Shown here: positions 1,336 to 1,534 of the stretch, one piece after another
How positions within the stretch are numbered: position 1 is the stretch's first letter
Layout: each line of letters opens with the position of its first letter
Origin: Eledone cirrhosa
Lineage: Eukaryota
NCBI GenBank assembly: GCA_964016885.1
Contig: OZ024746.1
Span: forward strand, 23,002,001-23,066,000
Direction of reading: 5' to 3'
Length of the DNA: 64,000 nucleotides
The notes under the pieces: generated by a model
The model's database searches: none
Seen by the model: only the letters and a program-made list of their open reading frames with translations
What the model was told of the DNA's origin: nothing
Made by a program: the position numbers and the translations under genes

Positions 1336-1531
1336 GAACGAGTAGGACCACGACGGCTGAGCTCAAGCTGTTTTGACGGTTAATTCTGGACTAAAAACCA
1401 GAATTAGCCGTCGAAACGGCTTTAGTTCAGCCGTCGGGGTCCTACTCGTTCCTATTACCCACTATACTAGCCTAAGTATTGAGTACTTTGGTGCGTTATG
1501 GTCCATCTGGTTCCTTACCACATTTCCTTCG

Positions 1532-1534
<3 letters not shown>
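1336..1534 (+). mobile_element. Fold-back element family A (5' hairpin + ~80-bp tail) in (TA)n
   Basis: Imperfect palindrome 1336-1451, then tail ...TATGGTCCATCTGGTTCCTTACCACA ending in (TA)n. Homologs at ~38750, 39908, 46292 and 62701. Confidence 0.8.

What the first reader, a model, noticed from the sequence alone, without database searches (positions are those of the whole stretch)
1336..1534. Family A: 'half-hammerhead' fold-back elements pivoting at stem II
Five copies (1336, 38750, 39908, 46292, 62701; the 46292 copy has lost most of the right arm). The right arm reads GAAA-CGGC..GCCG-TC-GGGGT, i.e. GAAA + stem III + GUC + stem I 3' strand. Where the CUGANGA half should be, there is instead the mirror image of that same half. 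Arms match within a copy but differ between copies (CTCCGGCCG/CGGCCGGAG vs CTCAAGCCG/CGGCTTGAG). Inference: cDNA snaps back on the ribozyme stem II hairpin and self-primes, producing a hairpin-capped non-autonomous family that may be mobilised by PLE RT. Alternatively, the half motif could be cleaved in trans.
Basis: partly seen in the sequence, partly recalled or inferred. Interest (0 to 1): 0.75.

Follow-up and report, generated by a model that had tools for sequence, protein, structure and literature searches.

The report
Penelope hairpin stubs record RNA ends
These small mirror-image repeats are stubs of the end repeat of a Penelope-type jumping gene whose full-length copies carry the whole self-cutting RNA motif, and their turning points likely mark where the element's RNA starts and, in a minority, where the motif cuts it, which would be a rare sign that this motif works in a living animal.

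Summary
Family A is the terminal repeat (pLTR) of a Hydra-clade Penelope-like retroelement: a complete 3.1-kb copy has an open 719-aa RT/GIY-YIG frame and a whole hammerhead with the known U3-A8 core (UUGANAA, so CTGANGA searches miss it). An exact 28-nt tail motif occurs 36,247 times in the genome. The mirror-plus-tail layout in (TA)n is the known PLE insertion form, here extremely short. The apex is remade at each insertion. Most arms stop 34-46 nt before the cut site, at an initiator-like A with a TATA-like box about 30 nt upstream and often an extra G: likely the capped RNA start, inside stem II. A minor class (303 pattern hits) has both arms ending at the predicted cut. Best model: two target-primed cDNAs, started 80 nt apart on one RNA, run off its 5' end and are joined head to head. 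Single-cDNA snap-back on stem II fits only a minority; a separate non-autonomous family or trans-cleavage is not needed. No RNA data tested this. The scan reported similar readings before on other DNA, including this genome.

The parts
1336..1395 (-). Copy 1, mirror arm: inverted pLTR piece from site 2 back to about -44 (0 = first base after the predicted cut)
1398..1454 (+). Copy 1, right arm from -38: stem II 3' strand, GAAA, stem III, predicted cut 1435/1436, stem I 3' strand ending at site 2
   Evidence: structure from the parent
1455..1534 (+). Copy 1, 80-nt one-sided tail ending at site 1, followed by (TA)n
   Evidence: same interval is 6409-6488 in the complete element L247
1565..1598 (+). 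Tail-only piece of the same family
1639..1711 (-). Tail-only piece of the same family, opposite strand
38742..38899 (-). Copy 2: old, minus-strand copy; mirror arm at about 38853-38899, degenerate right arm, tail cut short
39909..40089 (+). Copy 3, divergent subfamily (stem II with compensatory changes in its long copies); predicted cut 39987/39988; mirror arm ends in (GA)n
46292..46445 (+). Copy 4: mirror arm to about -34/-38; right arm restarts at or within 2 nt of the predicted cut (46347); tail to site 1
62701..62895 (+). Copy 5: mirror arm 62701-62754 (to -36), 1-nt insert, right arm from -40 (62756), predicted cut 62795/62796, tail to site 1

Best explanation
Family A copies are extremely short inverted-plus-tail insertions of the terminal repeat of a Hydra-clade Penelope-like retroelement, likely made when its reverse transcriptase primes on both ends of a cut (TA)n site, starts at two points 80 nt apart on one RNA, runs off that RNA's 5' end and the two cDNAs are joined head to head. 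Shown: the parent, its open RT/GIY-YIG frame, the complete U3-A8 hammerhead sequence, the two fixed outer ends, the (TA)n flanks, the variable apex, and the clustering of inner ends at -34 to -46 and, for a minority, at 0. Inferred: that the main cluster is the capped transcription start (initiator A at -41, inside the 3' strand of stem II, hence 'half a hammerhead'); that the minor cluster is RNA cut by the ribozyme; that both cDNAs usually come from one RNA molecule; that host end-joining makes the apex. The stubs are likely dead-end by-products of the coding element's own RNA, not a self-propagating family.
For: Parent: L247 has (TA)n, inverted 5'-truncated copy ending at site 1, partial copy, pLTR, open frame 6580-8739, 3'UTR, pLTR ending at site 2, (TA)n; 320 places run past site 1 into the ORF, some as 3.5-kb tandem arrays. 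Outer ends of 171 core-bearing arms: 89 site 2, 70 site 1, 12 other; 145 of 159 are followed by TATATA. Inner ends of the same 171: 128 at -34 to -46, 21 at -26 to -33, 15 at -47 to -79 (about 9 are scoring artefacts or long copies), 7 beyond -80. TATA-like TATTTA lies 29-31 nt before the T(T/C)AGT A in most of the 51 long copies where both motifs were parsed, of 59 collected. Base before that A when the other arm stops at TTTCT: G 25, T 6 (templated), C 4, A 0 of 35 (tallied by eye); an extra G marks capped full-length L1 insertions (PMC11702581, passage). Head-to-tail template jumps land at -40 to -44 in L305, L306/L307, L310, L312, L333 and exactly at 0 in L327 (30 of 320 loci seen). Cut-site class: 303 places, control 6; of the first 49 distinct, 16 have both arms ending exactly at 0 with an unrelated spacer, 15 are blunt at 0 (by eye). 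Two cDNAs: mirror arm longer in 29 of 60; two-subfamily hairpins L256, L299, L257, L107; chimeras with other PLE families L073, L074, L069, L094. Same RNA: arm type concordant in 55 of 67 against 0.20 by random pairing, and 0/0 hairpins (roughly 190) outnumber long/0 ones (roughly 35-60 in the same subfamilies). Precedent: the anole PLE protein cuts and extends both strands and starts at two internal sites that bound the tail (PMC11167929).
Against: No RNA data: start, cap and cleavage are read from DNA junctions only. 13 of the 25 extra-G cases read AG and can be templated inserts; the cap signal was weak (C 13, G 15, T 6, A 66 of 100 arm ends, by eye) and many arms there run on to -44/-45 or -52, so the start is a zone, not one base. 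The main zone coincides with stem II and the minor one with the foot of stem III, so RT stalling is not excluded. The divergent subfamily keeps the initiator-like motif but not the TATA-like box. 8 of 59 long copies have C3 with A8, which cannot form the core pair. Perfect palindromes are broken and repaired after insertion (recalled, not from a call), which could add apex variation and asymmetry. In vitro, ribozyme mutants did not affect insertion by the anole element, and no RNA reads ended at its cut (PMC11167929). Samples are tail-anchored and mostly from the start of contig C1.
Confidence: 0.75

Rival explanations
1. Same two-cDNA insertion, but the inner ends are RT stalls on RNA structure (stem II for the main class, the foot of stem III for the minor class), not RNA 5' ends.
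For: The main zone is the 3' strand of a predicted long stem II; ends spread over about 12 nt; position 0 lies two bases from stem III.
Against: Extra G before the -41 A; template jumps land at the same spot; initiator-like and TATA-like motifs at canonical spacing; both arms stop at exactly 0 with untemplated spacers in 16 of 49; few ends fall inside the equally paired stem I or at the start of stem II.
Confidence: 0.1
2. One reading: one cDNA snaps back on the stem II hairpin (or by microhomology at its end), self-primes and copies itself as far as site 2.
For: Self-priming was proposed for palindromic PLE junctions (PMC3846280, passage); arms are usually of one subfamily; 2 of 50 loci keep the native inner loop of stem II at the apex; 24 of 60 junctions show overlap.
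Against: Mirror arm longer than the tail-bearing arm in 29 of 60; blunt or 1-nt-spacer junctions with both arms complete to the last base cannot be a folded strand; the same two outer ends bound long insertions with kilobases between the arms; mixed-template insertions.
Confidence: 0.09
3. The short hairpin copies are themselves transcribed and form a self-propagating non-autonomous family (SINE- or retrozyme-like) carried by the PLE protein.
For: Short copies far outnumber long ones (7 of 114 tail-bearing copies scored long); many keep the initiator-like A; animal retrozymes are described as non-autonomous PLE derivatives (bioRxiv 10.64898/2026.07.22.740005, first part).
Against: The apex is not inherited and occurs in both orientations; the common short subfamilies have long counterparts; short copies lack the 5' half of the ribozyme, the TATA-like box and the RNA beyond site 1; no tandem arrays of the short unit were seen.
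Confidence: 0.05
4. A DNA transposon derivative (MITE with terminal inverted repeats and TA duplication, or a Helitron-type element).
For: The hairpin is bounded by TA on both sides and the arms look like terminal inverted repeats.
Against: The arm and tail are colinear with an RT/GIY-YIG element; one-sided tail; variable centre; no transposase in any long copy translated.
Confidence: 0.01

Closest known systems
Hydra clade of C-terminal EN+ Penelope-like elements (Craig et al. 2021, PMC8557442, section 11 and supplement rows; includes Hydra-1_Obim)
   Same: Single ORF, RT then GIY-YIG; RWR, DKT, CxCX5C, CxxC and CxH motifs; (TA)n target; hammerhead in the 3' repeat; the RT reads alike by eye with the Hydra alignment in the supplement.
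   Different: A different family from Hydra-1_Obim, whose listed hammerhead has a CTGAAGA core and short stem II. Here the core is U3-A8, stem II is long, the unit is 3.1-3.5 kb, and most copies are about 200-nt hairpin stubs.
Canonical EN+ PLE insertion: pLTR, adjacent inverted 5'-truncated copy, one-sided tail (PMC8557442 Fig. 2 legend; Pen2a_Av in PMC3846280)
   Same: Head-to-head inverted copy, tail on one end only, palindromic junction; TATA plus initiator-like motifs were also noted in the Adineta pLTR.
   Different: Tail 80 nt rather than 30-40; both arms cut down to 20-65 nt of repeat; inner ends pile up at two defined RNA positions.
Poseidon element of Anolis carolinensis in vitro (Frangieh et al. 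2024, PMC11167929)
   Same: Both DNA strands cut and extended at AT-rich DNA; RT starts at two internal RNA sites that bound the tail, downstream of the hammerhead.
   Different: There the ribozyme was dispensable in vitro and no RNA reads ended at the cut; here genomic stubs end at the predicted cut. There the ORF starts inside the ribozyme; here the first ATG is 190 nt after the cut.
Type I hammerheads of PLEs with U3-A8 core (Cercyon of Schistosoma, PMC4209133; natural covariation, PMC3088659)
   Same: U3-A8 in place of C3-G8; long helix II; paired motifs close together on opposite strands were noted.
   Different: A full 5-bp helix III with a 9-nt loop rather than a minimal one; helix II has an inner extension; activity untested.
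L1 twin priming and extra G at capped full-length 5' junctions (PMC11702581, passages)
   Same: Two primed cDNAs from one RNA give an inversion; extra G marks run-off at a cap.
   Different: L1's two cDNAs cover adjacent, non-overlapping parts of the RNA; here both copy the same 5' stretch, so the product is a palindrome.

Membership tests
EN+ Penelope-like element (parent) | Single ORF with RT followed by GIY-YIG endonuclease | tested here: met
   719-aa open frame in L247 with YRDD at 348 and YIGLT at 606; 2,054 homologues, about 40% identity over the full length, many with PF26215, one with PF01541. Pfam gave 0 hits on the protein itself.
EN+ Penelope-like element (parent) | pLTRs, partial tandems, inverted 5'-truncated copy and one-sided tail | tested here: met
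   L247, L287, L154 and nine more long inverted pairs; tandem arrays.
EN+ Penelope-like element (parent) | Hammerhead motif in the pLTR | tested here: met
   Three-way junction by folding in 3 of 5 copies folded; 92.7% of cells paired, 3 pairs with changes on both sides, all in stem II and all from the divergent subfamily. Rfam found nothing on it.
EN+ Penelope-like element (parent) | Target-site duplication | not testable with these tools
   Insertions sit in (TA)n, where a duplication cannot be read (145 of 159 outer ends followed by TATATA).
Hydra clade | RWK motif, DKG changed to DKT | tested here: met
   RWR at 37 (conservative variant), DKT at 117 (definition).
Hydra clade | CxCX5C linker; CxxC and CxH around the conserved E and N; no CCHH | tested here: met
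   CNCPDRSIC at 572, CNLC at 670 (the only CxxC), CKH at 698.
Hydra clade | Insertion into (TA)n; short element (<3 kb as a rule) | tested here: met
   (TA)n flanks; unit 3,118 nt in L247 and about 3,540 nt in arrays, slightly above the usual size.
Hydra clade | Phylogenetic placement with Hydra RTs | not tested
   No tree built; only motif match and visual likeness to the supplement alignment.
Active hammerhead ribozyme | Conserved core with 3-8 pair, GAAA, NUH cut site | tested here: met
   U3-A8 in 51 of 59 long copies, C3-A8 in 8; position 7 takes all four bases; U3-A8 is a natural variant active in vitro (PMC3088659, passage).
Active hammerhead ribozyme | Self-cleavage | not testable with these tools
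   Only indirect: insertion ends at the predicted bond.
Non-LTR retrozyme / self-propagating non-autonomous family | Tandem short units, each with a complete hammerhead | tested here: not met
   Short copies hold half the motif and are single hairpins.
MITE / TIR DNA transposon | Terminal inverted repeats shared with a transposase element; fixed internal sequence | tested here: not met
   Arms belong to an RT element; centre varies per copy; one-sided tail.

The most novel reading that the evidence does not exclude
The element starts transcription inside its own ribozyme, so that the capped start (-41) and the ribozyme cut (0) bound a 41-nt repeat at both ends of the RNA, like the R region of retroviruses. 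RT starts near the 5' end, makes a strong-stop cDNA, and normally jumps through that repeat to the cleaved 3' end, rebuilding the pseudo-LTR; Family A hairpins are strong-stop cDNAs that failed to jump. This would give PLE hammerheads a job and explain pLTR formation. For it: run-off and jump junctions at -40 to -44 and at 0. Against or open: the jumps seen land in the ORF, not in the repeat; long copies are seamless there and could equally come from read-through of tandem arrays, which exist.
Probability: 0.25. Interest if true: 0.85.

Novelty: new variant of a known kind. Interest (0 to 1): 0.55.

Why it matters
How Penelope-like elements integrate, and what their hammerheads do, is described as unclear (PMC8557442), and the one in vitro study found the ribozyme dispensable and no RNA ends at its cut (PMC11167929). 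Tens of thousands of stubs here act as a fossil 5'-end map: they point to an RNA start inside the ribozyme and to a few hundred insertions copied from RNA ending at the predicted cut, on both arms at once. A young, intact coding copy in the same genome makes each step testable. The element type and insertion layout are themselves known.

Tried and rejected
CTGANGA-based parent searches: 23 hits, all inspected, none related at the match; 64 hits, 30 inspected, all junction by-products or chimeras. Rfam: only sub-threshold miRNA-family noise among the 150 of 387 window matches listed, nothing on the parent ribozyme. Pfam on the ORF: 0. The repeat finder was swamped by microsatellites. Public runs: no RNA holder listed, so no reads were laid. 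One search had a faulty coordinate anchor and was replaced; one search's tally of the base before the A mixed templated and junction bases and is not used. One search was a weak test of the extra G. (447 hairpins whose right arm starts near the cut; about 24 of the first 100 exactly at 0, about half of those with GG overlap) was inconclusive alone. Rolling-hairpin (parvovirus-like flip/flop) replication was considered because apex loops occur in both orientations, and dropped once the loops proved to be many different junctions. Gene conversion keeping arms alike: no copy among 121 had identical arms unique to itself, and arms differ by 2.3 changes per about 45 nt against 5.3 between copies (overlapping loci left a few duplicates). 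Paper searches for this reading found none; subscription journals, Repbase and preprint supplements were not searchable.

Full report
Coordinates: 0 is the first base after the predicted hammerhead cut (GTC^GGGG). Site 2 is the end of the stem I 3' strand (+18), site 1 the end of the tail (+98).

1. Observation. The five copies are present, with the corrections listed under the observation check. The window is G000:C6:23002001-23066000 of a 3.0-Gb genome, rich in TA and GT repeats; the species was not determined. The family is large: 4,278 exact places of a two-arm pattern and 36,247 of a tail motif, controls 0. Among copies 94-97% identical to the 62701 copy, the apex differs from copy to copy and occurs in both orientations (20 of 30 loci printed), with small deletions and templated inserts.

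2. Parent. Searches with CTGANGA failed. The longest apexes gave a 5' extension; it has 2,062 places, and most of the 30 loci inspected continue into one shared upstream sequence that ends a GIY-YIG frame about 770 nt earlier. L247 holds a complete insertion: (TA)n, an inverted 5'-truncated copy ending at site 1, a partial copy, pLTR, an open 719-aa frame, 3'UTR, a pLTR ending at site 2, (TA)n. The protein has the Hydra-clade marks defined in PMC8557442 section 11 and 2,054 homologues; Pfam does not hit it. 320 places run past site 1 into the frame, some in 3.5-kb tandem arrays. The window's arms and tails match this element or its subfamilies at 75-94%.

3. Ribozyme. The parent's 5' half reads ACCCC, (T/C)TGANAA, G, then the 5' strand of stem II; 1,929 places fit the pattern. 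Of 59 long copies 51 have U3-A8 and 8 C3-A8, and position 7 takes all four bases. U3-A8 is a natural covariation (PMC3088659, passages) and occurs in Cercyon PLEs (PMC4209133, parts 1-2 of 4). Folding gives the three-way junction in 3 of 5 copies. On 31 aligned copies 92.7% of cells pair, against 33-53% when slid; three stem II pairs change on both sides, all owing to the divergent subfamily, so this is few independent events. Rfam does not recognise it. Activity is untested.

4. Outer ends. In tail-anchored and random loci, 171 arms with an intact core end at site 2 (89), site 1 (70) or elsewhere (12); 145 of 159 are followed by TATATA. The same two ends bound long insertions. This is the known inverted-copy-plus-tail form (PMC8557442 Fig. 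2 legend, passages; PMC3846280, passages), and in vitro the anole element cuts and extends both strands and starts at two RNA sites bounding the tail (PMC11167929, parts 1-2 of 4).

5. Inner ends, main class. Of those 171 arms, 128 stop at -34 to -46, 21 at -26 to -33, 15 at -47 to -79 and 7 run beyond -80; of the 15, about 7 are chance matches to the mirror arm and 2 are long copies missed by the template set. Of 114 tail-bearing copies 7 scored long. Position -41 is the A of T(T/C)AGT, an initiator-like motif (consensus recalled), with TATTTA 29-31 nt upstream in most long copies but not in the divergent subfamily. An internal promoter is known for Drosophila Penelope (PMC2377424, passages). 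Where the other arm stops at TTTCT, the base before the A is G in 25 of 35, T in 6, C in 4, A in 0; 13 of the G cases have another possible origin; without them it is 12 G to 4 C to 0 A. One search gave a weak signal and showed many arms reaching -44/-45 or -52. Independent of hairpin junctions, head-to-tail jumps from the ORF region land at -40 to -44 in five insertions (L306 and L307 counted as one) and at 0 in one, among 30 loci seen. I infer a capped RNA start zone in the 3' strand of stem II.

6. Inner ends, minor class. A pattern for very short hairpins of two subfamilies has 303 places, control 6. Of the first 49 distinct insertions, tallied by eye: 16 have both arms ending exactly at 0 with an unrelated spacer (mostly one A or T), 15 are blunt at 0 (5 with a substitution; the palindrome makes -1/+1 an equal reading), 7 join at -3/0, 8 lie within 2 nt, 3 are longer. 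I infer templates cut by the ribozyme. Stalling at the foot of stem III is the rival.

7. One cDNA or two. In 60 simple hairpins (12 of 72 dropped as mis-paired or complex) the mirror arm reaches further 5' in 29, the tail arm in 23, equal in 8; by 10 nt or more, 15 against 3. A tail-primed cDNA that folds back cannot give a longer mirror arm, nor blunt junctions complete on both sides. Four hairpins have arms of clearly different subfamilies, and L073, L074, L069 and L094 join a Family A arm to another PLE family. Yet arm type agrees in 55 of 67 (7 of the 12 others differ only in a T run; random 0.20), and 0/0 hairpins outnumber long/0 ones (rough estimate, patterns of unequal length), so both cDNAs usually come from one RNA. 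Junctions show overlap in 24, blunt ends in 14, inserts in 22 of 60, as end-joining would give. Snap-back on stem II fits 2 of 50 loci. Later palindrome repair may add to the variation and was not separated out.

8. Novelty. Element class, clade, insertion layout and core variant are known. The reading of the stubs as a map of the RNA start and of the ribozyme cut was not found in the paper searches; subscription journals, Repbase and preprint supplements were out of reach. PMC13282606 (part 1 of 3) and bioRxiv 10.64898/2026.07.22.740005 (part 1 of 5) do not describe it in the parts read. Earlier AI notes of this scan reached similar readings in other genomes and in this one; they are not independent support. 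My start-site and cap hypothesis was written down before I saw them; the lead to PMC3846280 and to Hydra-1_Obim came from them.

9. Verdict. A real, abundant feature; a new variant of a known kind; interest 0.55, for the testable clue to what PLE hammerheads do and where PLE RNA starts.

Noticed in passing
window 50469-52133 (-) and 21274-21615 (-): Fragments of two other Hydra-like PLE frames (35% and 54% identity to the L247 protein).
   Followed up: partly
window 1781 (+), 40622 (+), 62554 (+), 30500 (-): CTGANGA motifs, three with a GAAA downstream, in other short repeats next to TA runs; probably pLTR stubs of other PLE families.
   Followed up: no
L092:1559-2124; L081:1144-1500; L057:1667-1968: A second family with a canonical CTGAAGA hammerhead shows the same inverted layout with arms of about 250 nt, and is joined to Family A arms in some insertions.
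   Followed up: partly
L073 (minus strand), PLE ending about 870 nt after the Family A arm: Another Hydra-like PLE with a compact canonical hammerhead; its 3' end lies about 110 nt after the cut and its tail resembles the Family A tail by eye.
   Followed up: no
L186, L189, L279, L280: Arms with a clean deletion between the two GCCGTC repeats, removing GAAA and stem III; RT skipping or later slippage.
   Followed up: no
L091:1401-1500 (minus); L070; L123: Nested perfect palindromes of foreign or upstream sequence at the apex, suggesting fold-back fill-in during joining.
   Followed up: no
L305, L306/L307, L310, L312, L333: Template jumps resume at unit positions 211-358 and 959, which may be 3' ends of short 5' fragments of the element's RNA.
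   Followed up: partly
L009, L021, L182, L209, L218 and others: A subfamily with C3-A8 core (no 3-8 pair) still made long and short insertions; comparing its rate of cut-site stubs with U3-A8 subfamilies would test ribozyme activity from DNA alone.
   Followed up: no
G000:C1:91476608-91487269, C1:437200341-437210968, C2:320551591-320558713: Tandem arrays of three to four units of about 3.54 kb; the first is 99% identical to L247 over the part seen.
   Followed up: no
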